Origin: a virus
Direction: 5' to 3' (one strand)
Length of the DNA stretch: 64,000 bases
IMG/VR virus record: IMGVR_UViG_3300021479_000014
Coordinates: 16,610 to 80,609 of that record
Shown here: positions 15,724 to 28,107 of the stretch, piece after piece
Position numbering within the stretch: the first letter of the stretch is position 1
Layout: each line of letters starts with the position of its first letter
Translations under genes and position numbers: made by a program
Notes under the pieces: model-generated
Database searches by the model: none
What the model was told of the DNA's origin: nothing
The model's input: only the letters and a program-made list of their open reading frames with translations

Positions 15724-15845
15724 AACGGTTCTCCTAATAGGCCGAAATTACGTGCAAAGTTACACGTATGGCTTGGCAGTATTGCCTAAAAGGTGAGCCG
15801 TCCATAGGCGATTTACGATGTCAAACAGCACATTGGTCTAGCCCT

Positions 15846-15874: not shown

Positions 15875-16000
15875 ACCCACATTAAATAGTGGCGCATCAA
15901 GTCATCTATCACCATTATCAATAGCTGATGATATTTGACAATTGAACATGGCAAATCTGTGTATGAATTCTGAACCGCCAAAGTGCGGCAAAAATAGGGC

Positions 16001-16029
16001 TTGCCTTCCTTCGCGATTTCGGCTAGACT
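16001..16029 (+). promoter_or_regulatory. Sigma70-type early promoter
   Basis: TTGCCT-tccttcgcgatttcggc-TAGACT. Confidence 0.6.
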
Positions 16030-16035
16030 ACCCTC

Positions 16036-16595
16036 TAGCCCGCTATAGGCGCGGGCGAAGACGATCTGATCTGACTTCTACTGCGGTTACACTTGACATT
16101 CCGCCGAAAGCGGTCTCTGCGGTTTTTGACAGATCCTACGACCCGCTGTTTGACATTCGAGGATTGCTTTATGCCGGCTGGGCTCGTCCGTGTTCGGGGC
16201 TGATTACGCATGTCTGAAGACATGCGGAGAATCAACAGGAGCGGTAAAAGGATCACTCGTAGAATAGCGCAAGTATCACGGGGTTGCGAAGAACAACGCT
16301 CTGATACGAAAGGCAAGCGCATGACAAGTTGCCTGAGGATGTTTGACCAGCCTTAGATGCAGGAAAACAGATTTGACGAACTCATGTAACACCCTGTTGA
16401 GTCCAAAAAGGCAAGAGACAGTGTTTTGAGGGTGCAAACTGGACGGGAAAAGAAACCGTACGTGGCGAGCAAGGGAACATCCGAAACCCAGACATTGTGC
16501 GATAGTGTCTGGTGACCCAAAAAATCAAAGACAGCAATACAGAGCACAGCGGGATGAAATAATCCTGCTGTGTTCAATAGTGCTGTCAGCACTAG
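16036..16595 (+). ncRNA. Putative large structured RNA / 5' leader (~560 nt)
   Basis: No credible ORF. Many hairpins, a long-range helix 16337-16343/16476-16482 and a possible pseudoknot. Confidence 0.55.
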
Positions 16596-16610
16596 AAAGG
16601 AGAAATCAAA

Positions 16611-17045
16611 ATGTCTTATAGAAGTAAAAAGATTCAAAAAGAAAAGCATGAATCTTATTCTGCATCATTGCGACAAATAGTTCTCTCAACAACAAGAGAA
16701 CGTCTACCACAACAAGACGGATATGTTGTGGCTCAAACGCCAAGAAAGAAGCGTTCTAAGTGGCGTATCGTAATTGATCCTGAAAATAGCAAGAAAACGC
16801 GAAAAGTTTCAGGATTCAGAATTAAAACATCAATTAAAGATCCAACTGTCAATCGTTATAGAGAAAACGATCAGAATTTAGGATATATCAACAAGAAGAA
16901 GTATTATGGGAGGTTTACGACTAATCCAAAGACCAAAGGGCGCGTCTTAGCTGTTATTCAGCAACCAGCGCAAGCAGCGTCTCAAGAGTCAGAATATATG
17001 CAGATCGAAGGAATAGTCATCGAAGGCGAGTATACTGAGGAGTAA
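16611..17045 (+). CDS. Very basic hypothetical protein
   Basis: SD aaggag; K/R-rich; first ORF after the structured RNA. Confidence 0.65.
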   Translation: MSYRSKKIQKEKHESYSASLRQIVLSTTRERLPQQDGYVVAQTPRKKRSKWRIVIDPENSKKTRKVSGFRIKTSIKDPTVNRYRENDQNLGYINKKKYYGRFTTNPKTKGRVLAVIQQPAQAASQESEYMQIEGIVIEGEYTEE

Positions 17046-17050
17046 GTACA

Positions 17051-17801
17051 ATGCGTGTCAAACACTTCGTGCATTCTAATCAACCAGAACAGAAGCGCAC
17101 CAGAATAGAGATTGAACTGCGAATGATGAATAATCGCAGAAAGAAAAGAGGACCAATAACACTAAAGCAACTAAACTTCATAAACAAACAACCACAGGAG
17201 AAGTAAAATGGCCGTATATGCGTTTGGACACCCAGGACAATGGTGGGCTGATGTAATGGGTAAAAGATACCCTTGCGTTGGCGCAATGCGAATAAAGAAT
17301 GACCACTACCAACAAGCGTATTCTCTTAATAAAGAGAAGTCGTGGAACCTCATAGAGGAAATTGAGGAGCTTCAAAAGGTTATAGTCAGAGAGGAAATAC
17401 TGCAAGCTAATGGCATCTATAAAGTGATAGGATATGTTGGCTTATTTCATGTACTCAATTTTATAGTAACAATTACTGATACCCACAAGATCGTTGATTT
17501 CGATCTTGGTCCGAAAATTGTTACGATCAAAAACCGCTAACCACAGGAGAGTAAAATGGCAAACATAAGCATACCGGTGGAACTTATCGACAGCTTCAAC
17601 TACTTCCTCAATAAGGGAGCTGGCGATCACAAAGCGAAGCCAATGATAGACGAACTTGGAATGACTAAGATAAGAAAGATAATGAAATTAAGAACGTTCT
17701 TCAATAAGAACGAGCAATATGGATACAGAATTGTTGCTCATGGTCCAGACGATAAAGAAGAAACTGGAGATGATAGCTATTACGAATTCATATTTCCGTA
17801 A
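17051..17801 (+). CDS. Three early hypothetical ORFs (17051-17206, 17208-17540, 17556-17801)
   Basis: The last two share the leader aaccacaggag(a)agtaaaATG. Confidence 0.6.
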
Positions 17802-17804
17802 ATA

Positions 17805-17861
17805 GATCGAAACAGCCAGTGCGATTGGCTGTCCTAGCGTTTGGCGCTAGCTGATGAGATC
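17805..17861 (+). ncRNA. Type II hammerhead ribozyme HH1
   Basis: gatc-GAAA-cagcca[gtgcgat]tggctg-TC^-ctagcg[tttgg]cgctag-CTGATGA-gatc; predicted cleavage after C17833. Confidence 0.9.
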
Positions 17862-17879
17862 AGTAACAGGAGAAGTAAA

Positions 17880-18299
17880 ATGAAGATAAATCTTAACATA
17901 CATATCATGTCGTGGATGTGTCGCGAACATGACATCATCGATCCAGATCTTATCCAACTAAAGAACAATCACGAACAAATGATTGTGGATATTTCAGAAA
18001 GGATATCAATAAGATTTGATTATCCTCTTTCACATTCTGTATTGCTCCAATTTGGTGGCAAGAAGCCGTGGAGATTATCAGATCTAATTGATGTTGTCTG
18101 CGCCGGATATGTGAAGATATATGACGAGGAAGATGAAACCAGAACGCTTCCAGCTAGTGCTCCGTTGGATTCGATTCTGGTCAATCGTCCTAAAACTGAC
18201 GGCAAGCACGGCATCTGGGGACACATCCTAAATGACTTGTATATTGAAGGAATATACAAAGGATCAGACGGTGTTTGGTTGCTACAAATGGGATCATAA
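17880..18299 (+). CDS. Hypothetical protein flanked by two hammerheads
   Basis: True start ATG 17880 after SD aggag; the track start at 17841 lies inside HH1. Motifs FDYPLS and GIWGH.L.DLYIEG. Confidence 0.7.
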   Translation: MKINLNIHIMSWMCREHDIIDPDLIQLKNNHEQMIVDISERISIRFDYPLSHSVLLQFGGKKPWRLSDLIDVVCAGYVKIYDEEDETRTLPASAPLDSILVNRPKTDGKHGIWGHILNDLYIEGIYKGSDGVWLLQMGS

Positions 18300-18360
18300 G
18301 ACCGAAAGGGTGGCGCCACAAGCGCCATTCTCCTAGCGTTAGGCGCTAGCTGACGAGGTC
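18300..18360 (+). ncRNA. Type II hammerhead ribozyme HH2
   Basis: gacc-GAAA-gggtggcgc[cacaa]gcgccattc-TC^-ctagcg[ttagg]cgctag-CTGACGA-ggtc; cleavage after C18332. Confidence 0.9.
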
Positions 18361-18378
18361 AGTAACAGGAGAACTAAA

Positions 18379-20984
18379 ATGGTAAAAGCAGTATATTGGT
18401 ATGGACCAGATAAAACTGGTCACGACGACTTTGGTATGCCATACGGCGATTTTATGTTTGATGGCAAAACAAAGATGGGACCTTGGGCCTGCATGAGTAG
18501 CTATAGCTGGGAGAAACACGGCTGTGGCAAACTCGGAACTGGCTTTGGCCAGAAGTACAAGAGACAGGCTGATGGCCGTTGGCTTAAGGTGGAGGGTTAA
18601 ATGGCGCGCATCAGTGTAAGACGTGGATCTGAAGGTCCAGAACACGATCCGTATTCATATACGGAGATCACGTTCTACTTCACAGATTCTGAGCGATCAA
18701 AAGTCGTTTATCATAGAGGATTAGGTGAGTGGCTTAAATATGGTGGTCGAACATACGACGCTAGTGACAGTTGGTTACCATCGTCAATTGACTATCTATT
18801 TAAGCACATAACTGGACTCTCAGTTCGTAGAGCCGAAGAGATTCCAGAGATGCTGTTTGAGCGTTCCATGCGTAAATACACTAAAGCTGAGCGCTGGGCC
18901 ATCATGGAATGCATCGAAGCCGATGAGGCCATGCTCAGAAACTGCTATTGAAATAATTGAACTTTGGAGCGCAGCAATGCGCTCCGCTTTTAGGCAATTT
19001 TGCCAGACTGAGGAGAATAAAATGAGGTACGTTGTTATCAATAGAGCATGTGATGGAACACATATTTCGTCACATGCTACGTTTGAGAAAGCACAAAAGC
19101 GTGTGGAAGAAATGGTTGGCAGAAGAGAAGGGCCATTCAAACTTAATCAACCCTATTGTTCTGATTGGGGTAACGTTCTCACAATCGAGGAGCGCCCAGG
19201 CAATTGGACTGCGAATACTGAGCGGCGCGTTTCCGAGGCTTTTGATGCTAACGAATGTGGTTTTGCAACAAAGGCTCAAATTAAATTGTTGCATGAAAAG
19301 GGTTGGCTGACAGGAGAGTAAATGACAGAAAATCAAGAGTTTAGTATTTGGATGTCAAGGGTAGAATTTTACCTTGAATCTATGGTAAAGAAGTCGTTGA
19401 CACTATTGAAGTCATATGACTATCGCGATGACTTCAATAAAGGTTTTCTACCAGAAGAAACAGCAACTCGTGTAATTCAAAGGAGCAGAAAATGGCAAAG
19501 AAAGACCCGTGGATAATATGCCCTGTCTGTGAAGGAGAGGGAAAGACAGTCAATCCAAATATTGACGCGAATGGATTGACTGCGGAAGACTTCAATGAAG
19601 ACCCAGACTTCAGAGAAGACTATATGAGCGGCGTATATGACATTACGTGCGCTGCATGTGGAGGTCAACGCGTCATCAAGAAGCAACGCATGAAAGAGCT
19701 GGCGCGAAATGCCGAAAGTCGCCGTCTGGCTGCTCGTGAAGATGGCGATTATGAAGGCTATTGCGGCGCTGGTGATTGGAGATATGGATAATGCATATCC
19801 TCCTTACCATAATTGTTATCATTGTACTAGTGGTTGTTTTTAGCAACCTAAATCAACAAGGAGTGATAACAGCTTGGAAAGGTCCAAATAACAATCTTGG
19901 TTGTATACCATTATTGTTAGTCTTTATATTTACCATTTGGGCCTTATGCCAATTGCCTGTAATACATTGAACTTAATGGCAGGTGCGATCTGCCATCTTT
20001 TAGGCAATTTTGCCAAACTAGGAGAATAAAATGGATAATCCTACAGTAGTGGTAGAAATAGAAGTGGATGCCGTACAAGAGGCCATCCAAACAATCCGAA
20101 AGATCAATAGCAAGATTGCTTGGGTGCTGGAAAATAATCCGCCATACAAGCAGAAGGAGCTTGATGATCTGAAGTATCGCAACGCCAATCTTACACTGGT
20201 TGAGTTGCGCCTCACTAAAGCTCTGAGCGATAGGGCTTTGGCCAATCAAGCCAAGGGCAATGTCGTTAAGATGGGAGGCAAGAAATGAGAAAGGCTCTAT
20301 TGGCAGAATATAAAGTCAAGCCAAATGGCACAAAACTCCTTGACGATTTCAGAGGAGACAGAATTTATGGTAATTGTTATATTATCATAAAGGCTGGCGT
20401 AGAAATCTACGAGGTTATTACCTCAACGTTGGGTGATTGGTGTAACTGCCCAGCCGGACAACATGAGAAGAAATGCAAGCATCTATCTATGGTGTATGAT
20501 TTCAAAGAGAAGGAAGAAAAGGTCATATGAAATACAATGCGACGTGTACGCTTCAAGCAGTACATATCAAAACTGGCAAAGTGATAGATATTTGTCAGTT
20601 TGATTCTTCTCCTCTTGAGATAGAAGCATCTTCACAAGAAGACGCAGACGAAAAATGGTCCAGACGCTGCCTCATCGAGGCAATGTGCTCTGGTTCTGAT
20701 ATAGCCAGAAAAGAATACAAGCAAGGGAAATGGAAATGAATAAACAAGACAAAGCCAGGTATCCTTTTATACGTGCCTGGGGCTACCAACTTGGTTCTTT
20801 TCAATATTATATCGAGAGTGAAATTGAAAGAGCCATTCGAGAAAATGCTCCTGAGCGTGCCATTTATAAAAGTGGTGCAGGAGGGTGGCGAACTATAGAT
20901 GACTGCAAGGATGAAGCAGTCAAACAACAGTGTATTGATTGGGTAGAAGCACATAAGAACGATCAATACGTTTCTGACGAATAA
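18379..20984 (+). CDS. Early hypothetical ORFs (18379-18600, 18601-18951, 19022-19321, 19322-19516, 19492-19791 Zn-finger, ~19791-19970, 20031-20288, 20285-20530 SWIM-like, 20527-20739, 20730-20984)
   Basis: Contiguous and SD-preceded; CPVC..CAAC and CNCPA..CKH motifs. Confidence 0.6.
18956..19024 (+). repeat. Repeated two-hairpin intergenic leader, copy 1
   Basis: attgaactt-[ggagcgca gcaa tgcgctcc]-cttttaggcaattttgcca-gactgaggagaataaaATG. Confidence 0.7.
19966..20033 (+). repeat. Repeated two-hairpin intergenic leader, copy 2
   Basis: attgaactt-[atggcagg tgcga tctgccat]-cttttaggcaattttgcca-aactaggagaataaaATG. Confidence 0.7.
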
Positions 20985-21045
20985 GACCGAAACTGGCCGC
21001 AGTGATGCGCCCAGTCGTTGCGTAATGCGCAGCCTGACGATGGTC
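20985..21045 (+). ncRNA. Type II hammerhead ribozyme HH3
   Basis: gacc-GAAA-ctggccgca[gtga]tgcgcccag-TC^-gttgcg[taatg]cgcagc-CTGACGA-t-ggtc; cleavage after C21016. Confidence 0.85.
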
Positions 21046-21065
21046 AGTAACCCAAGGAGATGTAA

Positions 21066-21209
21066 ATGGGCGATCCAGAAGAGCATAAAGACGAAGAGTT
21101 GACTGTAAAATCTGATGCTCCAAAGGAAGAAGGGCCAAAAACAGATCCAGAAGAGAAAGAGGCGGATCCAATTCGCCCAGGAGAAGGCGGACAACCTGAA
21201 GTAGCGTAA
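21066..21209 (+). CDS. 47-aa highly acidic protein (not in track)
   Basis: MGDPEEHKDEELTVKSDAPKEEGPKTDPEEKEADPIRPGEGGQPEVA; SD aaggag; lies between HH3 and a terminator. Confidence 0.65.
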   Translation: MGDPEEHKDEELTVKSDAPKEEGPKTDPEEKEADPIRPGEGGQPEVA

Positions 21210-21216
21210 TCAACTT

Positions 21217-21251
21217 GCCGCTCCCATTTTAGGGAGGATGGGAGCGGTTTT
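21217..21251 (+). terminator. Intrinsic terminator
   Basis: gccgctcccat...atgggagcggt followed by a T-run. Confidence 0.75.
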
Positions 21252-21266
21252 AACTAGGGATGGAAA

Positions 21267-24200
21267 ATGATAACCATAAAAGAAATCACTTCTATGAAAG
21301 AGTTTGCTATCATAAGAAGTGCTTTGGAACTATATGTCGCTACTCTGAGTGAAGAGTATGACAGTAAGCAAACACGCCTCAAACTTAAAAAACTTGAGGA
21401 AGCCCAAAAATGTCTGAAAGACTTCAAACAACTAGGAGAACAAAATGGCAAACTTCAAAAGGCTACCGTCACTTAAACCCTGCCATTGCGGCAGCGGTTT
21501 GGAAAGAGAAGCGCGTTATGATGCGCGTGGAATCTTCCTCACATATGTCTGCGAGAAGTGTGTGGAAGAGAAACTGGGTAAATTTCGCCCGGAAGTTCTA
21601 ACTGATCCCAATTATGATCTTATGGGAGAAGAGTTAGACGATGATGGTGATCTTGCAGATCCTGATATTCATCGCGATCTGCCGGATTTTGAAGATCCGG
21701 ATGTTCTCAGATGAAAACTCTTATCACGATGGGTGCGCTGCTAATTTCAGGCAGCGCACAGGCTATGTGTGATTTTGAACATCATTGCTATCAAGATACA
21801 CCACCGCCGCAAGTATATCATAATCTAAACGGAGACGTGATACCGCCTCCGCCTCCTCAATATCCTAAGCCTAATCAAATTATAGTTCATGCACCAACAC
21901 CACAAGTGACAATAAATGCGAATGTTTGTAAGTTGGTAAGAATTAGAGTAGCGCCAGAAGCTCCACAAACAATAGTTGAAATCTGCACAATGTCTGATGA
22001 TGAAGAAAGAATGTATCGTCAGAGACAGAGTCAACTACAAGCATCTATTCCACAATTTCAACCCTATTAAGGAATCACCTGGTCTTTTCAACAGCCCCCC
22101 GGTTGTTATAGGCCAGGTGAAGACTTGCCGCCAGGATTTGTACTGCGTACCTGGCGGATTTTTTGTCAATTTAGGAGGCAGTAATGGCAACCTATCATTA
22201 TTCCATGTTGGGAATGGTAAGAGTAAGACAACTTCCAGATAAATGGGTACTTGAAGTATCCTACAAGGATGAGGATGTCCAATCTGGATATTACAAACAT
22301 GACCAGATATGGCACCTAGTAGGCGAATGTTCTGATCTTGTCCAAGTAGGTGAACTAGTTTTGAACCTATGCAAAGAGGAGACCAAACGTGTCTGACTCA
22401 AGGAGGAAAGAAAGTGGTTGAGCAAAGGCGTTATATGAGTATCGTAATTGCCATCCTCAGAGAGGAAGGTTTGTACAGTATGGCAATGTCTAATGATCTG
22501 TATGTGTGGATCAACAAGCGTATCAGCGAGAACCATCAGAAAGGTCTCACTGTCCTAGAATGTGTGAAAAATATCAAGAAGGAACTTCAGCATGCCAGAG
22601 CATAAACTGCCAAAGCGTTTAAAGCTACCAGTAGTTCCGATGGAAGGTAACTTCATGTTTATAATTAAACCTGAAGATACTCAATTTGCTGAAGGGAAGA
22701 TATTGGAGACTTTACCAGATGTTGATATGCTTACATTTGGAGTTGGCGGTTTATTAGAAATCATCCCTTTATTCACTAAGTTTGGTGGACGTCCATGTGT
22801 TGCTTTCTGTAATGAAGAAGGCAAATTATATGGACTTCCTCCTAATCATTTAGCCCATATGCTTTGGGAACAAAACTTGGGGCGCATCATAACTGAAGAT
22901 CAACTTGTTGGAAATGTGGTTGTTGTTGTAGGATCACCATCATTCTTAAGGAGGATGTGATGAAGAAAATCCTCGTCATAACTCTAACCATAGGAACGAT
23001 AAATGCAGCAGATGCTCATTGTTACTCTCGCTGGTATTATCCGTTTCCTCAAAACTGTGGAGTCGCTTATCGCAGCCACTCCCATCGCATGGCTCTATTA
23101 CAGCTTGATTCCACTCCTCCTGTTCGTCCTGTTTCTATTGATTTCCCATTACCTGATCTGAGTGGAATATGGATCAACGCTACAGAAACTCCAGAACAAT
23201 TAGAATTAATGGAAGCAATGGATCGTATCAAAGCTATTAGAATATTATCAAATAATTAATTTGCCAATTTGGCAAGGAGACAGCTATGAATAAGGCAGAA
23301 CTCAAGGTAGTTGCTGATGCCAAGGGAGAAATTGAAGATGCAAAGGAGAAAGTTTCCAATTTTATCGATGAGATCATAACAAAGACAATAGATCCAATGA
23401 TAGAAACCATTGGAAATCTGCAAGATGAGCTGCAAGCGCAGTTTGACGATCTTTCTGAGAAGACCCAGGAAGGTGATAAGGGGACAAAACTCACAGAAGA
23501 AATAGACGCTCTTGGTGAGCTCAAAGATGAACTCGATACGTTCAAGACAGAGTTTGATGATACAGCGTTCGACGATATCATCGCTAAGTTCGATGATGTA
23601 CCAGGACTGACTGCATAGTTTTGCTTGACGTACCAGCCTTAAGGCTACCGCAAACCCCCGACAGGAACTGGCGTTGATATAGCACAGTCAACGAAAGTCA
23701 AGCAATGGGTGGGAGGAGGTATTTTGAATGGCATCCTAGCCTCCTCCCATTTCTTATATGGAGAGAAAAATGAACACATGTGAAGTTATGCACCAATATA
23801 AAGATGGGTTAGTAATAAAATGGAATAATTCTATATGGGTTGTTAGAGCAGATGGAGATCAGCCATCCTTGTGGCCTGTTGCGATTGTTGAGCGCAATGC
23901 ACAAGGAAGATTATCATTCAAAATTCCTAAAGGAACTGACATTGCTAATGCCAATGCAGTTCTTGCATCACTTATCGGAATTAATGACTTCTTTAAATAG
24001 GAGCGCCACATGCCAGTAGGTCCAGGTAAATATGATGGAGAAGCAACATGGGTACAAGCGCGCACCCAAGCTACTGGTGTATTACTAATGATAGTAGACG
24101 GTAATAAAGGTAATGGATTTTCAATAGCCAGTTTTGATATTCAAGCAACTCTTGATATTACATTGGTATTACCAAAATTATTAAGGGAAATGGCAAATCA

Positions 24201-25202
24201 AATCGAACAAGAAATCTCTAAAATGGGTCATTAAAATGACAAAAACTAAACCGTCTAATCAACAAGTACAATTCCGATTGTTACAAATGCCATGTTGTAA
24301 TATTTTGATCTGTTGGGTTAATCCACGCAGACCAATGTATTGTCCAGAATGTGGAACAAGAGTGTTCCATGCCTATCCAAAAGCAAGATGGGAAGAACAA
24401 TATTCTGAAGCATGGTTACGTGTAACTGACTATGAGAAAGCGACTTGGAAAGATGAAAAAGAAACATGAAGAGCATGATGAAAAGACCTGCTTTCGTTGC
24501 AGACTTCATGCACTATTTGAAGAAATATATCCGAAAGGTATTGGTGATGATGAAAGATTTATATTGACTACACTTGCTGAGGCAGTAGGTCAACTATTAT
24601 CAGGAATGGATGATCGTGAAGCAGCATATTTTATGTTTGCAGTAATGAAATATATGCAAGAAGATGATGAAGACGAAACACCCACAGAACACTAGGAGGC
24701 GCAACATGGCTAAGTTTGAAGAATCAATCGATCCCACTGAAAGGCTTACGTTCTTTCCAGATGGAACTGCTCTAGTTATCAGGTATTCGCCGTGGACAGG
24801 TAAATTCAATAAAGTTACCATACGACTTACTGAAGAACAATATAATAATTGGCACAACAAGCGTATGCTGATACAAGATGCAATGCCTCATCTAGATAAA
24901 GATGAGCGTGAGTTTTTAATGACAGGCTATACCCCTACAGATTGGGCGACAATATTTCCTCCAGAAGACGAGGATGATAAAGACGTTTAATGGGGGAATA
25001 AATGGAAACGTCTCCTTGGAACAGGAAGCTCCATAAATATCTAATGACTAATGGATATAAATACACTCAACATTATCGTTATGATAGATATGACAAAGGT
25101 AAGATAACCATCTTCTATTATATCAATAACTACATAATGATTCTAGAGGGAGGGGAACCAGCATCAAGTAGAATAGTACGTGAAATAGAAAGTGTACTCT
25201 AA
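21267..25202 (+). CDS. Cluster of small hypothetical ORFs, including signal-peptide-like proteins (21711, 22957), DUF3846-like 22592-22960 and an acidic coiled coil 23286-23618
   Basis: Contiguous ORFs with SDs. CNEEGKLYGLPPN..A...LVGNVVVV is typical of DUF3846. Confidence 0.55.
22128..22164 (+). terminator. Intrinsic terminator, preceded by a long hairpin at 22075-22120
   Basis: ccgccagg...cctggcgg followed by atttttt. Confidence 0.7.
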
Positions 25203-26226
25203 CCAGGAAACTAAAATGTATCTCATGGATCATATAATAGAAACAGTTCACGAAGCTAAAAAGAGACGATTGTTGAATCATCCAGTTATAAGTGTCTTCC
25301 CAATATTGGAAGAGAAACTGAAAGGATGTCCACGTTTCTTATTTGATGAAAACTCAATACATACAGCAGTTGAACTTACTCTGGGGCGCCCCAAAGTTCT
25401 CAGAGAAGCCATGGCGCATCTTACCATACCTTATTCAAGAATGTGGATAGAATGGCCAGAATCTGGTAGAGAAAGATTGAGGCAAACATTCTCAATAGAT
25501 GCTTTTGAGCATCCAAATAGACCTTTACCAACCCGTCTTGGCTTTTTGTTAGAAGCAGATGAAGCTGGTAGAAAAGGAATGGTAACTTGGGTCTGGAGTA
25601 ATCATTTTATTAAAAAAGGAGAGCCACCTAATGTGTGTCCAATATCTGCTTTCTTTGATCTAGATTTTGATTACGGAAAGTTATCCAATTCGCATATGTC
25701 AAGCTTTTTGGACGCAAATCTAGCACACATTTGGAGAAACAAACCAATTCAATTAGCTGCGCTCCAGAGTATATGGGACACAGCAGTACATAAGCCATCT
25801 GATTGGGGAATGAGATTTCTAGAACTTCCTACTCCAACATCTCCATTTGGACACACCAATAATGAAGTAGCCAATTTCTACGCAGACGTTTATGGTGAAT
25901 ACATTATGGTTTGGTCTTGCCTAATGCTTCTTACCAGTTCTAGGAAGATCATAGATCTAGAAGAAGTTGACATGTCTAAACTTAATCAGATTCGTAAACG
26001 AATGAACAAACCTGTAAAGCTGGACCATACTGTAGTGAGCATGTATATTAATCAAGATGTTCACGTACACAAGCCAGGTGTGCCGTTAGGATTTGATAGA
26101 AAGAGTCCTCGAATTCATATGGTTTCTCGCTATCTAAATAGACGTGGCGATAAACATTGGATAGTGGAGCCTTTCTGGCGCGGCAAAGGTGAAGTTATAA
26201 GCAGACATGTGAAGGTAAAAGTTTAG
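25192..26226 (+). CDS. Hypothetical phage protein
   Basis: 344 aa; C-terminal SPRIHMV.R...W..PFWRG. Confidence 0.65.
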   Translation: MYSNQETKMYLMDHIIETVHEAKKRRLLNHPVISVFPILEEKLKGCPRFLFDENSIHTAVELTLGRPKVLREAMAHLTIPYSRMWIEWPESGRERLRQTFSIDAFEHPNRPLPTRLGFLLEADEAGRKGMVTWVWSNHFIKKGEPPNVCPISAFFDLDFDYGKLSNSHMSSFLDANLAHIWRNKPIQLAALQSIWDTAVHKPSDWGMRFLELPTPTSPFGHTNNEVANFYADVYGEYIMVWSCLMLLTSSRKIIDLEEVDMSKLNQIRKRMNKPVKLDHTVVSMYINQDVHVHKPGVPLGFDRKSPRIHMVSRYLNRRGDKHWIVEPFWRGKGEVISRHVKVKV

Positions 26227-26501
26227 GAGTGCAACATGACTTATGAAGTAGTATCATTTACCGGTGATTTCCCATTAGCACATCAGCCTAATTGGGATGT
26301 CCAATACGTAACAAGAGCAGAAGCTATCAAAGAAGGTAGACTTCAACATGAACTATTCAACATAGAACAACATAATGAACATTATACTATGGTTTTAGAT
26401 TTAGATAAAGATGAAGATAATGAAGTTGAATGGATAATTTATCAAGATAAAGAATATGTAGGACGTAAAGCTCAAATACTTGCTGATGATTTAGCAGGAG
26501 A

Positions 26502-26708
26502 ATGTACGTGACAGCAGACGAATATGAATATTTCATTAAGCAATTAAATCCAAATTGTTGGAAAATATATAAAGTAGATGGACATTATAAAGAACCAACT
26601 GATACTTATACAGTTATGCTACACCGTGGCTATTATCAATGTGATTGTCCAGCACCAAAACACTGCAAGCACATTGATATGGTCAAACCCAAGAAGGATC
26701 TATTCTAA
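26502..26708 (+). CDS. SWIM-type Zn-finger protein ending in KDLF
   Basis: YTV...YQCDCPA..HCKHI. Confidence 0.65.
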   Translation: MYVTADEYEYFIKQLNPNCWKIYKVDGHYKEPTDTYTVMLHRGYYQCDCPAPKHCKHIDMVKPKKDLF

Positions 26709-26941
26709 TGAAATGTCCTTACTGTAATGGAACTGGAGATTTAATAAATCCTGAAGTTGGTGCACTCATTCTGTTGGCGCGCCAAGCTAAAGGAATGACA
26801 CAAGAACAACTTGGTATAGGTTCTAGCTTATCACGCGCACAAATTGCTAATATTGAACTTGGTAAATCAGATGTACCAACAAGAACTTTAGCGCGTATTG
26901 CCCAGACACTTGGTGTTTCTATGAAGGATTTAGTACCGTGA
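26708..26941 (+). CDS. XRE-family HTH regulator with an N-terminal CxxC
   Basis: RQAKGMTQEQLG...LSRAQIANIELGKS. Confidence 0.8.
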   Translation: MKCPYCNGTGDLINPEVGALILLARQAKGMTQEQLGIGSSLSRAQIANIELGKSDVPTRTLARIAQTLGVSMKDLVP

Positions 26942-27447
26942 CTCGTGAATGTGGAGACTGTACTCTTTGCTGCAAATTGGTACCAGTCAAAGAGATAGAT
27001 AAGCCAGCTAATACACGTTGTAAGCATCAACGACAAATAAAGGGTTGTCTTGTTTATCATACAAACAAAATGCCATTCTCTTGCCATGTTTGGAATTGTC
27101 GTTGGCTTGTTAATGCTGATACACACGATTTGGCGCGCCCAGATAGATCGCATTACGTCATAGATATGATGCCAGATTTTGTTATTGCCTTAGATGGAGA
27201 TAAGAAGATTCAAATTCAAGTAGTCCAAATTTGGTGCGATGCTAATTATCGAGATGCTTGGAAAGATCCTAAGCTCAAAGCATATATGATGCGTCGTGGC
27301 GCAGAAGGAATTGCGTCTATGATTCGTTACGACTCTTATGAAGCGTTCATTGTTTTTCCGCCTAATATGACTGCCGAAAAGCAATGGATGATTAGGTCTG
27401 GTGACATGAGAGAGAAGAGTGAGCTAATCGAACTATTGGAGGAATAA
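26938..27447 (+). CDS. YkgJ-like Cys-cluster protein
   Basis: RECGDCTLCCK...CKH...GC.VY...C..WNC.W. Confidence 0.65.
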   Translation: MTRECGDCTLCCKLVPVKEIDKPANTRCKHQRQIKGCLVYHTNKMPFSCHVWNCRWLVNADTHDLARPDRSHYVIDMMPDFVIALDGDKKIQIQVVQIWCDANYRDAWKDPKLKAYMMRRGAEGIASMIRYDSYEAFIVFPPNMTAEKQWMIRSGDMREKSELIELLEE

Positions 27448-28107
27448 TGGTAAAGTATAAACCAGGTTATGAACATCTATATAAAAGATTTCCAGGTCAT
27501 TATAGACAACTCATAATGAATCCAACAAAACCATTTAGACCTAATTATGAATATTTATATACACCATATCCTCCAGAAGATGATGAGGAAAAATGGCATC
27601 ATTGGTGTGAATTTCATGGTGTAAAATTATGGACAGATTTAATATTTTGTGACAATTGTTGTAAAATAATTAATCCAAACAGACATTATAATAGAAGTAT
27701 GGTGCCAAATTTATTACCAGCAAGAATACGATATTCAGTACCTGAAAAAATTCTCTGTCAAAGTTGCACAGCAAAAGAAAATTATCAATATTACCAACTT
27801 GAAGAGATTACGCATCTCACTAGGGAGATTCGTAATATGACGAGGAGAAGCAAACGTGGGAAAAAAGAATAATAAACCAAGACAGATCGTAAATGACACT
27901 CGTGGTTTACGATGGCTACTTTTAGTCTGTATAGATGATCTTGCGAACAGCAGGATCACACCCAACAAGGCAAACGCAATGTCCAATGTTGCTAATTCGA
28001 TAATGGACACAATGCGTTTAGAGATGGTATCCACCAGGATTGGCAGTTCTGATGGATACGCGCCTCTGATTCTTGCTAACGTTCCAGAAGAGATCGAGGC
28101 TAGTTAA
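27447..28107 (+). CDS. Two hypothetical ORFs (27447-27872, 27856-28107)
   Basis: Coupled ORFs; CDNCC..CQSC in the first. Confidence 0.5.

What the first reader, a model, noticed from the sequence alone, without database searches (positions are those of the whole stretch)
17805..21045. Three type II hammerhead ribozymes punctuate the early operon
Seen in sequence: three elements (17805-17861, 18300-18360, 20985-21045) have the full hammerhead core in type II order: stem II 5' strand, GAAA, stem III, UC cleavage site, stem I, CUGAYGA, stem II 3' strand. The stems differ in sequence but keep pairing (gatc/gatc vs gacc/ggtc; ctagcg/cgctag vs gttgcg/cgcagc; three different stem IIIs). Each starts within a few nt of the upstream stop codon and is followed by agtaac, an aggag SD and the next ATG. 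Established: this core self-cleaves after NUH. Inference: the phage chops its early polycistronic mRNA without a protein nuclease, playing the role RNase III sites play in T7. Each downstream gene would get a 5'-OH end capped by stem I, which should resist 5'-monophosphate-dependent decay.
Basis: partly seen in the sequence, partly recalled or inferred. Interest (0 to 1): 0.92.

Follow-up and report, generated by a model that had tools for sequence, protein, structure and literature searches.

The report
Three hammerhead ribozymes between phage genes
An uncultured soil phage carries three genuine self-cutting hammerhead RNAs wedged between genes of one operon, an arrangement described for phage and prophage DNA in 2011, so it is a clean new example, not a new kind of thing.

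Summary
Window 17805-17861, 18300-18360 and 20985-21045 (+) each carry the complete hammerhead core in type II order. Each fills the gap between a stop codon and the next Shine-Dalgarno/ATG. My descriptor finds exactly these three in the 80.6-kb phage record, against 0.005 expected by chance. A covariance model built only from other contigs hits only these three (61-76 bits). About 45 relatives in viral contigs and MAGs keep the core invariant while all three stems covary. Related phages carry 5-6 copies per operon.

Rfam's Hammerhead_II model scores them below its gathering score (25.5, 21.8 and no hit, against 37). This subfamily has a 4-bp stem II and an AGUAAC tail. It shows no detectable loop I/tail pseudoknot.

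The interpretation, ribozyme processing of a polycistronic phage message, is the hypothesis of Perreault et al. 2011 (PMC3088659). They showed cleavage for three such tandem arrays. It is plausible here but untested: the host is unknown and no RNA data exist. This scan has already reported larger arrays (9 and about 25 copies) on other phage DNA.

Three extra points came up:
- A conserved alternative hairpin (CUGAY/RUCAG) competes with stem II.
- HH3 has an extra U after A9.
- Hammerhead junctions tend to coincide with breaks in gene order.

Verdict: real, a new member of a known kind, modest interest.

The parts
17805..17861 (+). Hammerhead 1 (type II). Stem II is GAUC/GAUC, stem III has 7 bp and stem I is CUAGCG/CGCUAG. 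The triplet is GUC and predicted cleavage is after C17 = 17833.
   Evidence: Sequence; descriptor; Rfam RF02276 25.5 bits, below the gathering score of 37; independent model R2 75.7 bits.
18300..18360 (+). Hammerhead 2 (type II). Stem II is GACC/GGUC, stem III has 10 bp including A15.1-U16.1, and stem I is identical to that of HH1. The triplet is CUC and predicted cleavage is after 18332. It starts directly after the TAA of the 139-aa gene.
   Evidence: Sequence; fold; descriptor; no Rfam hit even at E<=10; R2 61.1 bits.
20985..21045 (+). Hammerhead 3 (type II). Stem II is GACC/GGUC, with one extra U between A9 and G10.1. Stem I is GUUGCG/CGCAGC. The triplet is GUC and predicted cleavage is after 21016.
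   Evidence: Sequence; Rfam RF02276 21.8 bits; R2 63.3 bits. The closest homologue, L004:750-822, lacks the extra U. The U is present without a gap in contigs of three further soil runs.
17851..17863 (+). Alternative 5-bp hairpin CUGAU-GAG-AUCAG. It uses core C3-N7, the stem II 3' strand and the AG of the tail. The same hairpin occurs at 18350-18362 and 21034-21047.
   Evidence: It is part of the MFE fold of all three elements. The hammerhead fold lies 0.1-2.1 kcal/mol above the MFE. RNAalifold picks this hairpin as consensus. N7 pairs with 10.2 in 40 of 45 relatives.
17862..17882 (+). Conserved tail AGUAAC, then Shine-Dalgarno AGGAG and ATG of the next gene. The same layout occurs at 18361-18381 and 21046-21068.
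   Evidence: repeat families D2, D6. In relatives the ATG lies 12-25 nt after the hammerhead.
17880..18299 (+). 139-aa gene of unknown function, bracketed by HH1 and HH2. The predicted excised RNA is 17834-18332, 499 nt.
   Evidence: ORF list; no Pfam or PHROG match; only hypothetical metagenomic homologues. Homologues at 71% identity or more are also preceded by a hammerhead.
18379..20984 (+). Block of about ten small ORFs between HH2 and HH3. The predicted processed RNA is 18333-21016, 2,684 nt.
   Evidence: ORF list; gene strings.
21066..21209 (+). 47-aa gene directly downstream of HH3. Its homologues are preceded by a hammerhead in all five contig groups that have it.

Best explanation
The three elements are genuine type II hammerhead self-cleaving ribozymes, transcribed as part of a + strand polycistronic message of an uncultured soil phage. 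Each sits exactly in an intercistronic gap: stop codon, ribozyme, AGUAAC, Shine-Dalgarno, ATG. Cleavage after C17 would cut the message after 17833, 18332 and 21016. That releases a 499-nt single-gene RNA and a 2.7-kb multi-gene RNA. In the type II layout the two products are held together only by the 4-bp stem II, so they should separate readily. The upstream product would end in the stem III hairpin with a 2',3'-cyclic phosphate. The downstream product would begin with a 5'-OH directly at the stem I hairpin and keep its ribosome-binding site free. The stem II 3' strand can then refold with the CUGAY box into a 5-bp hairpin, which would hinder re-association. Shown here: the motif, its non-random occurrence, covariation and conserved placement. 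Inferred: transcription, cleavage, product release and any effect on stability or translation.
For: - Full core, G10.1-C11.1, A15.1-U16.1 and C17 are present in all three.
- There are exactly 3 hits in the 80.6-kb record, all on the sense strand, against 0.005 expected.
- The independent model R2 finds only these three, at 61-76 bits.
- In 35 relatives from other contigs, 100% of cells in 15 modelled pairs are standard pairs. Eleven pairs change on both sides, the covariation score is 0.69 against 0.18 in shuffles, and slid controls give 20-40% pairing.
- The core CUGANGA, GAAA and UH are invariant in 49 of 49 copies.
- Placement is conserved: in most of the 49 copies the stop codon abuts or overlaps the first G of stem II (gap -1 or 0), and the ATG mostly follows 12-36 nt later.
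- Related phage contigs carry 5-6 copies within 4-5 kb of the same operon.
- Published precedent: three tandem arrays cleaved during in vitro transcription, one of them also in vivo after cloning, and three type II hammerheads of Desulfovibrio vulgaris cleaved in vivo (PMC3088659, PMC8782182).
- No strong + strand terminator signal lies between HH1 and HH2.
Against: - There is no direct evidence of transcription or cleavage.
- Rfam's curated Hammerhead_II model does not reach its gathering score for any of the three.
- No loop I/tail pseudoknot, the usual tertiary brace of type II hammerheads, is detectable above permutation controls. Activity at physiological Mg2+ is therefore not assured.
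- Nearest-neighbour energies put a competing hairpin level with the active fold, or ahead of it. Stem II pair probability is 0.60, 0.42 and 0.06 for HH1-3.
- HH3 has an inserted U in the core-stem II junction.
- Two hairpin-plus-U4 elements at about 18965-18992 and 19976-20002 could end transcripts between HH2 and HH3. The 'one long message' picture may therefore be too simple.
Confidence: 0.8

Rival explanations
1. The hammerheads matter mainly at the DNA level, as portable conserved linkers. The invariant 3' half plus the ribosome-binding site gives related phages a shared 25-50-bp stretch at gene boundaries. Recombination there swaps gene cassettes. RNA cleavage may still occur, so this rival does not exclude the best explanation.
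For: - Gene-order strings show the same upstream gene plus hammerhead followed by four different downstream genes in four contigs.
- The next gene is conserved in another contig group at 2 of 20 hammerhead junctions, against 19 of 42 nearby non-hammerhead junctions (p 0.009). Over all junctions p is 4e-6.
- Stem III and stem I 'alleles' occur in different combinations.
- Contigs of relatives in the same soil samples stop matching inside the hammerheads, at 17833, 18331, 17867, 21037 and 21066.
Against: - A DNA linker would not need an invariant catalytic core together with compensatory changes in three helices. Those show selection on the RNA.
- The statistics rest on crude ORF calls, few contig groups and non-independent comparisons. 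Within the strict hammerhead zone the difference is not significant (p 0.13).
- Conserved islands in a variable region will look like breakpoints whatever their function.
Confidence: 0.3
2. Cleavage is conditional, not constitutive. The CUGAY/RUCAG hairpin, or a ribosome stopping at the abutting stop codon, holds the ribozyme off, so processing is tuned by translation of the upstream gene or by conditions in the cell.
For: - The alternative hairpin is in the MFE fold of all three. It is isoenergetic with, or better than, the active fold.
- N7, which is free in hammerhead catalysis, pairs with 10.2 in 40 of 45 relatives. C7 goes with G10.2 (Fisher p 2e-4, not corrected for relatedness).
- The stop codon abuts or overlaps stem II in most copies. 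From general knowledge of the ribosome's mRNA footprint, a terminating ribosome would cover stem II and GAAA.
- Perreault et al. raise regulated cleavage for phage hammerheads (PMC3088659).
Against: - The N7/10.2 association may be shared ancestry.
- The hairpin could equally act after cleavage, as a product trap.
- No ligand-binding or sensor element is present.
- Energy models ignore the tertiary contacts of the active fold.
Confidence: 0.2
3. HH1 and HH2 excise the 499-nt single-gene RNA so that it can be ligated into a circular mRNA.
For: - The excised RNA would carry a 5'-OH and a 2',3'-cyclic phosphate. From general knowledge, RtcB-type ligases join such ends.
- It holds exactly one ribosome-binding site and one ORF.
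- Perreault et al. mention circles as a possibility (PMC3088659).
Against: - Perreault et al. looked for spliced or circular products in their arrays and found none (PMC3088659).
- The phage record encodes no RtcB.
- A chimeric hammerhead made of the HH2 5' half and the HH1 3' half would have a C-A mismatch in its only intermolecular helix, GACC against GAUC (sequence).
- In relatives the same gene is not always bracketed on both sides.
- An earlier bold circular-RNA reading on other DNA in this scan fell on checking.
Confidence: 0.06
4. The elements are inactive relics, or plain hairpin clusters that only resemble hammerheads.
For: - Rfam scores are sub-threshold.
- No pseudoknot is detected.
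- HH3 has an insertion in the core.
- The same operon holds two hairpin motifs that share a stem III-like hairpin but lack the CUGANGA box, which may be decayed copies.
Against: - All 13 core positions are invariant across about 45 diverged copies while the stems change by compensation. That is not expected without selection for catalysis.
- Chance expectation is 0.005 per genome.
Confidence: 0.05

Closest known systems
Clustered hammerhead ribozymes flanking single genes or short gene blocks in prophages and phages (Perreault et al. 2011, PMC3088659; arrays in Clostridium scindens, Azorhizobium caulinodans, Agrobacterium tumefaciens)
   Same: Several hammerheads lie in one orientation within a few kb and bracket one gene or a short block of phage genes of varying identity. 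The proposed role is processing long phage transcripts into gene-length mRNAs.
   Different: All three here are type II and belong to one sequence subfamily. Each is fitted exactly between a stop codon and a ribosome-binding site. They lie in an uncultured soil phage, not a prophage of a cultured bacterium. No cleavage data exist.
Rfam Hammerhead_II (RF02276), the pseudoknotted type II hammerhead
   Same: Same core, same circular permutation (stem II open, stems I and III capped), and the same A before and AG after stem II.
   Different: Stem II is a fixed 4 bp (GAYC/GRUC). The tail is AGUAAC, AGAAAA or AGUAAU, and shows no complementarity to the 5-nt loop I beyond chance. Scores fall below the gathering score. 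Of roughly 45 copies in 15 related loci, only one reaches it, and that one is a canonical pseudoknotted copy of a different subtype.
Three type II hammerheads near phage-like genes in Desulfovibrio vulgaris, shown active in vivo by cyPhyRNA-seq (PMC8782182)
   Same: Type II hammerheads in a phage-like gene context. In vivo cleavage gives 5'-OH and 2',3'-cyclic-phosphate ends.
   Different: Those lie at three separate chromosomal loci, not in one operon.
Hammerheads with an extra nucleotide between A9 and G10.1 (De la Pena & Flores 2001, J Biol Chem, title as cited in PMC2632901; the chrysanthemum chlorotic mottle viroid example is from my memory of that paper)
   Same: HH3 carries one extra nucleotide at this position.
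   Different: Here the extra base is U, in a phage type II hammerhead. Its effect is untested, and the nearest homologue lacks it.
RNase III processing sites between phage T7 early genes (from general knowledge)
   Same: Intercistronic cuts in a polycistronic early message that leave a hairpin at the 3' end of the upstream product.
   Different: T7 uses a host protein enzyme and leaves 5'-phosphate and 3'-OH ends. A hammerhead needs no protein and leaves 5'-OH and 2',3'-cyclic-phosphate ends. This is an analogy of role, not a relationship.

Membership tests
Hammerhead ribozyme | Conserved core C3 U4 G5 A6 N7 G8 A9 and G12 A13 A14 | tested here: met
   CTGATGA / CTGACGA / CTGACGA and GAAA in all three. 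HH3 has one inserted U after A9. The core is invariant in 49 of 49 family copies.
Hammerhead ribozyme | Cleavage triplet N-U-H, with A15.1-U16.1 closing stem III and an unpaired H17 | tested here: met
   GUC, CUC and GUC. A15.1-U16.1 pairs in the folds. AU in 35 of 35 relatives.
Hammerhead ribozyme | Base pair 10.1-11.1 next to the core (usually G-C) | tested here: met
   G10.1-C11.1 in all three, with a bulged U before G10.1 in HH3. CG in 35 of 35 relatives.
Hammerhead ribozyme | Three helices around the core, supported by compensatory changes | tested here: met
   98-100% of cells are paired, 11 pairs change on both sides, no shuffle of 500 reaches the observed covariation score, and slid controls give 18-44%. 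Caveat: the sequences were selected with a descriptor that requires pairing next to the core.
Hammerhead ribozyme | Site-specific Mg2+-dependent self-cleavage giving 2',3'-cyclic-phosphate and 5'-OH ends | not testable with these tools
Type II hammerhead (Rfam RF02276) | Permutation with stem II open and stems I and III closed by loops | tested here: met
   Order of parts in the sequence.
Type II hammerhead (Rfam RF02276) | Score at or above the curated gathering score (37 bits) | tested here: not met
   No match at gathering. 25.5 bits (HH1), no hit (HH2) and 21.8 bits (HH3) with permissive filters. This is an annotation threshold, not a biochemical criterion.
Type II hammerhead (Rfam RF02276) | Pseudoknot of about 4 bp or more between loop I and the tail 3' of stem II (present in the majority of type II examples, PMC3088659) | tested here: not met
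   The mean longest loop I/tail helix is 2.78 bp in 40 subfamily copies, against 2.69 +/- 0.10 with tails permuted (24% of permutations reach it). The tail is nearly constant while loop I varies. A non-Watson-Crick contact cannot be excluded.
Clustered phage/prophage hammerheads (Perreault et al. 2011) | Several hammerheads in one orientation flanking single genes or short gene blocks of a phage | tested here: met
   Three on the sense strand within 3.2 kb, bracketing one gene and a block of about ten genes. The window has phage hallmarks: large and small terminase, tail collar, DnaE. The record is an IMG/VR virus record.

The most novel reading that the evidence does not exclude
In this group of soil phages the hammerheads are both RNA scissors and the seams of a gene-cassette system. 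Each small gene travels with its own upstream 'stem I + CUGAYGA + GRUC + AGUAAC + Shine-Dalgarno' half-ribozyme. Recombination within the invariant core re-sorts cassettes between phages. A conserved product-trap hairpin (CUGAY/RUCAG) makes the cut irreversible. This would link ribozyme punctuation to phage mosaicism and would define a pseudoknot-less type II subfamily that current Rfam thresholds miss.
Probability: 0.25. Interest if true: 0.55.

Novelty: new member of a known kind. Interest (0 to 1): 0.3.

Why it matters
What bacterial and phage hammerheads are for is still open (PMC6765202). This phage group offers a compact and very regular test case. There are three to six near-identical-core ribozymes per operon, each fitted between a stop codon and a ribosome-binding site, and natural variants exist: an extra U in HH3, and loss or gain of copies between relatives. 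It also shows that a whole subfamily of type II hammerheads common in soil viral contigs escapes Rfam's gathering threshold, so routine annotation undercounts phage ribozymes. The arrangement itself and the processing hypothesis are not new.

Tried and rejected
- Rfam at gathering score on the whole window gave nothing. Rfam on 3.7 kb at E<=10 gave only noise; hits appeared only with about 90-nt inputs.
- Megablast of the region, and blastn of HH2, against 50,697 phage records gave no match. DnaE is at most 35% identical to that of any cultured phage, so the host is not identified.
- The genome contigs pattern with the AGTAA tail gave 0 hits. The relaxed pattern gave 17 loci, 15 with hammerhead matches to model R1 at E <= 0.01 (10 strong at 47-63 bits, 5 weak at 22-31 bits), in MAGs of many phyla, with other tails. 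This is not informative for the host.
- Nine of the 33 exact matches to CTGAYGAGRTCAGTAAC in viral contigs are chance matches with no hammerhead upstream.
- Sequencing runs: no RNA holder was listed. The laid runs were DNA contigs only, so nothing can be said on expression or RNA ends.
- The pseudoknot search (loop I against tail or leader) gave no signal.
- RtcB is absent from the phage record.
- The sigma-70 promoter and terminator scan was no better than shuffles.
- The 139-aa bracketed gene has no Pfam or PHROG match and only hypothetical homologues.
- Homologues at 44% identity or less, in 29 other viral loci, have no hammerhead of this subfamily within 2.5 kb. Twenty of those loci were also scanned with Rfam and hold no family at gathering score. 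The gene-ribozyme link is therefore confined to one phage clade.
I used the search for related loci instead.
Full report
**The observation.**
- HH1 (17805-17861): GAUC-GAAA-[stem III CAGCCA/UGGCUG]-UC-[stem I CUAGCG/CGCUAG]-CUGAUGA-GAUC.
- HH2 (18300-18360): GACC-GAAA-[GGGUGGCGC/GCGCCAUUC]-UC-[the same stem I]-CUGACGA-GGUC.
- HH3 (20985-21045): GACC-GAAA-[CUGG..CCAG]-UC-[GUUGCG/CGCAGC]-CUGACGA-U-GGUC.

All have G10.1-C11.1, A15.1-U16.1 and C17. The upstream stop codons end 3, 0 and 0 nt before the elements. AGUAAC, a Shine-Dalgarno sequence and an ATG follow within 18-20 nt.

**Chance.** The window is bases 16610-80609 of an 80,609-bp IMG/VR virus record rated complete. A type II descriptor of my own asks for stems of at least 3, 4 and 3 bp, the core boxes and UH. 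It finds exactly these three in the whole record, all on the + strand. Two hundred dinucleotide shuffles give 0.005 hits per genome.

**Rfam.** Rfam's Hammerhead_II model (RF02276) gives no match at its gathering score of 37 bits. With about 90-nt inputs it gives 25.5 bits for HH1, 21.8 for HH3 and nothing for HH2.

**An independent model.** I built a covariance model (R2) from 35 hammerheads of other viral contigs and MAGs. It excludes this genome and its three near-identical relatives. With filters off it hits only these three sites in the 64-kb window, at 61-76 bits and E 1e-13 to 1e-16.

**Relatives.**
- An exact-pattern scan of IMG/VR for the 3' box plus tail returned 26 loci. Nine matches were chance hits with no hammerhead upstream.
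- The rest are hammerheads, and their contigs carry more copies: five in L005, L018 and L023, six in L026 and L028, all within 4-5 kb.
- A looser pattern in 185,579 species genomes gave 17 loci, 15 with hammerhead matches to model R1 at E <= 0.01 (10 strong at 47-63 bits, 5 weak at 22-31 bits). They lie in MAGs labelled Alphaproteobacteria, Acidobacteria, Bacteroidetes, Spirochaetes, Actinobacteria and others.
- On 35 sequences from other contigs, all 525 cells of 15 modelled pairs are standard pairs. Eleven pairs change on both sides. The covariation score is 0.69 against 0.18 in shuffles, and slid registers give 20-40% pairing (for the set that includes the window).
- CUGANGA, GAAA and U-H are invariant in 49 of 49 copies.

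The selection descriptor required pairing next to the core, which inflates 'percent paired'. It cannot create the many different compensating pair types.

**Anatomy of the subfamily**.
- Stem II is always 4 bp (GAYC/GRUC).
- An A precedes it. This is usually the last A of UAA, or the A of a UAG whose G is the first base of stem II.
- AG follows it.
- The tail is most often AGUAAC (19 of 40 copies), then AGAAAA and AGUAAU.
- Loop I has 5 nt and starts with U.

The majority of published type II hammerheads brace stems I and II with a pseudoknot between loop I and this tail (PMC3088659). I find no such signal here. The mean longest loop/tail helix is 2.78 bp, against 2.69 +/- 0.10 when tails are permuted. 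Other hammerheads in the same contigs (L007, L014, L024) do have the canonical pseudoknot. Of roughly 45 copies in 15 loci, only one, a pseudoknotted copy in L014, reaches Rfam's gathering score. Standard annotation therefore misses the subfamily.

**A competing fold.** ViennaRNA folds all three elements as stem III, stem I and a third 5-bp hairpin, CUGAY-GAN-RUCAG. That hairpin uses C3-N7, the stem II 3' strand and the AG of the tail. The hammerhead fold lies 0.6, 0.1 and 2.1 kcal/mol above the MFE. Predicted stem II pair probabilities are 0.60, 0.42 and 0.06. The energy model ignores tertiary contacts. RNAalifold also chooses this hairpin as consensus. Position 7, which is free in hammerhead catalysis, can pair with 10.2 in 40 of 45 copies. 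Stem II itself pairs in 35 of 35. I read the hairpin as either an off-state or, more simply, the structure the downstream product adopts once the 4-bp stem II has opened. The second reading would keep the products apart. This is inference.

**HH3's extra U.** The nearest homologue (L004) lacks it. Contigs from three other soil runs that cover the site show no gap there, so it is not an assembly error. An extra nucleotide at this position is on record for a viroid hammerhead (De la Pena & Flores 2001, cited in PMC2632901). Its effect here is unknown. HH3 is the copy I trust least to be fast.

**Context.** The window is phage: large and small terminase, tail collar/collagen fibre, DnaE, SNF2 helicase. 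DnaE is at most 35% identical to that of any cultured phage. Nothing in 50,697 phage records matches the region. Public runs holding it are soil metagenomes, and at least two studies hold most of it. The host is unknown.

The ribozymes lie on the sense strand of a run of small + strand ORFs without known function, upstream of the replication genes. That fits an early or middle operon but does not prove one. HH1 and HH2 bracket one 139-aa gene with only hypothetical homologues. HH2 and HH3 bracket about ten small genes. The 47-aa gene after HH3 is preceded by a hammerhead in all five contig groups that have it. The 139-aa gene is preceded by one in every contig with a homologue at 71% identity or more. 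Homologues at 44% identity or less, in 29 other viral loci, have none within 2.5 kb. Twenty of those loci were also scanned with Rfam and hold no other Rfam ribozyme.

**What it most likely does.** The layout is the one Perreault et al. described in 2011. They found multiple hammerheads flanking single genes or short blocks in prophages and proposed that long phage transcripts are processed into gene-length mRNAs. Three tandem arrays cleaved in vitro, and one also in vivo (PMC3088659). A 2019 review still calls the purpose undefined (PMC6765202). Type II hammerheads next to phage-like genes cleave in vivo in Desulfovibrio (PMC8782182).

I therefore take self-cleavage of the polycistronic message at three intercistronic sites as the best explanation (0.8). 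The type II permutation with a 4-bp stem II suits this role. Only stem II holds the products together. The upstream RNA ends in the stem III hairpin. The downstream RNA starts at the stem I hairpin with its ribosome-binding site unpaired.

Whether this stabilises or destabilises the pieces depends on the host's RNases. From general knowledge, 5'-OH ends escape the 5'-monophosphate sensor of RNase E. In Bacillus, however, the 5'-OH glmS product is the one degraded, by RNase J1 (Collins 2007, cited in PMC6765202).

**Gene-order breaks (tentative).** Gene-order strings of six contig groups show that hammerhead junctions are where synteny breaks. The same upstream gene plus hammerhead is followed by four different genes in four contigs. 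The neighbour is conserved elsewhere at 2 of 20 hammerhead junctions, against 19 of 42 nearby non-hammerhead junctions (p 0.009). The difference is not significant inside the strict zone (p 0.13). Contigs of relatives in the same soils stop matching inside the hammerheads. This may mean the conserved half-ribozymes act as recombination seams. It may also only reflect conserved islands in a variable region. ORF calls were crude and the comparisons are not independent.

**The circular mRNA idea.** The phage has no RtcB. The chimeric HH2/HH1 stem II has a mismatch. Perreault et al. found no circles.

**Novelty.** The kind is known and the members are new. This scan has also already reported larger arrays of the same kind on other phage DNA, nine copies and about 25 copies; I did not re-test those reports. 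The pseudoknot-less, Rfam-sub-threshold subfamily and the competing hairpin are modest variations worth a line in a survey. They are not a new class.

Noticed in passing
window 18965-19010 and 19976-20019 (+); also about 15774-15791 (-): A second repeated intergenic motif occupies the same slot (stop codon ... Shine-Dalgarno). It is a variable, compensating G+C hairpin (GGAGCGC/GCGCTCC or TGGCAG/CTGCCA), then YC, then a conserved box TTTTAGGCAATTTTGCCA. The second hairpin equals a stem III 'allele' of hammerheads in L025/L026, but there is no CUGANGA box, so it is not a hammerhead. The box recurs in L005, L015, L023/L028 and L026. It also occurs once on the minus strand upstream of the DUF3631 gene. 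It may be a weak intrinsic terminator plus a palindromic protein site (GGCAA-TT-TTGCC), or a decayed hammerhead. Unresolved.
   Followed up: partly
window 15900-28000 compared with L005, L018, L025, L026, L028: Hammerhead-bearing gene junctions coincide with breaks in gene order between related phage contigs: 2 of 20 conserved against 19 of 42 for neighbouring junctions. Stem III and stem I sequence 'alleles' are found in different combinations.
   Followed up: partly
window 17194-17210, 17866-17882, 18365-18381 and others: Near-identical ribosome-binding cassettes (ACAGGAGAAGTAAAATG and AGGAGAATAAAATG) are repeated in front of many small genes of the operon, with or without a hammerhead.
   Followed up: no
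L014:5460-5528, L007:7565-7645, L024:6754-6822: Other viral contigs picked up by chance carry canonical pseudoknotted type II hammerheads of different subtypes. L014 holds one of each kind about 900 nt apart, so the two designs coexist in one phage.
   Followed up: partly
L033:212-299 (-): An Rfam Proteo-phage-1 RNA (45.9 bits) lies on a Xanthobacteraceae MAG contig that also carries a hammerhead of the GACC/GGUC design.
   Followed up: no
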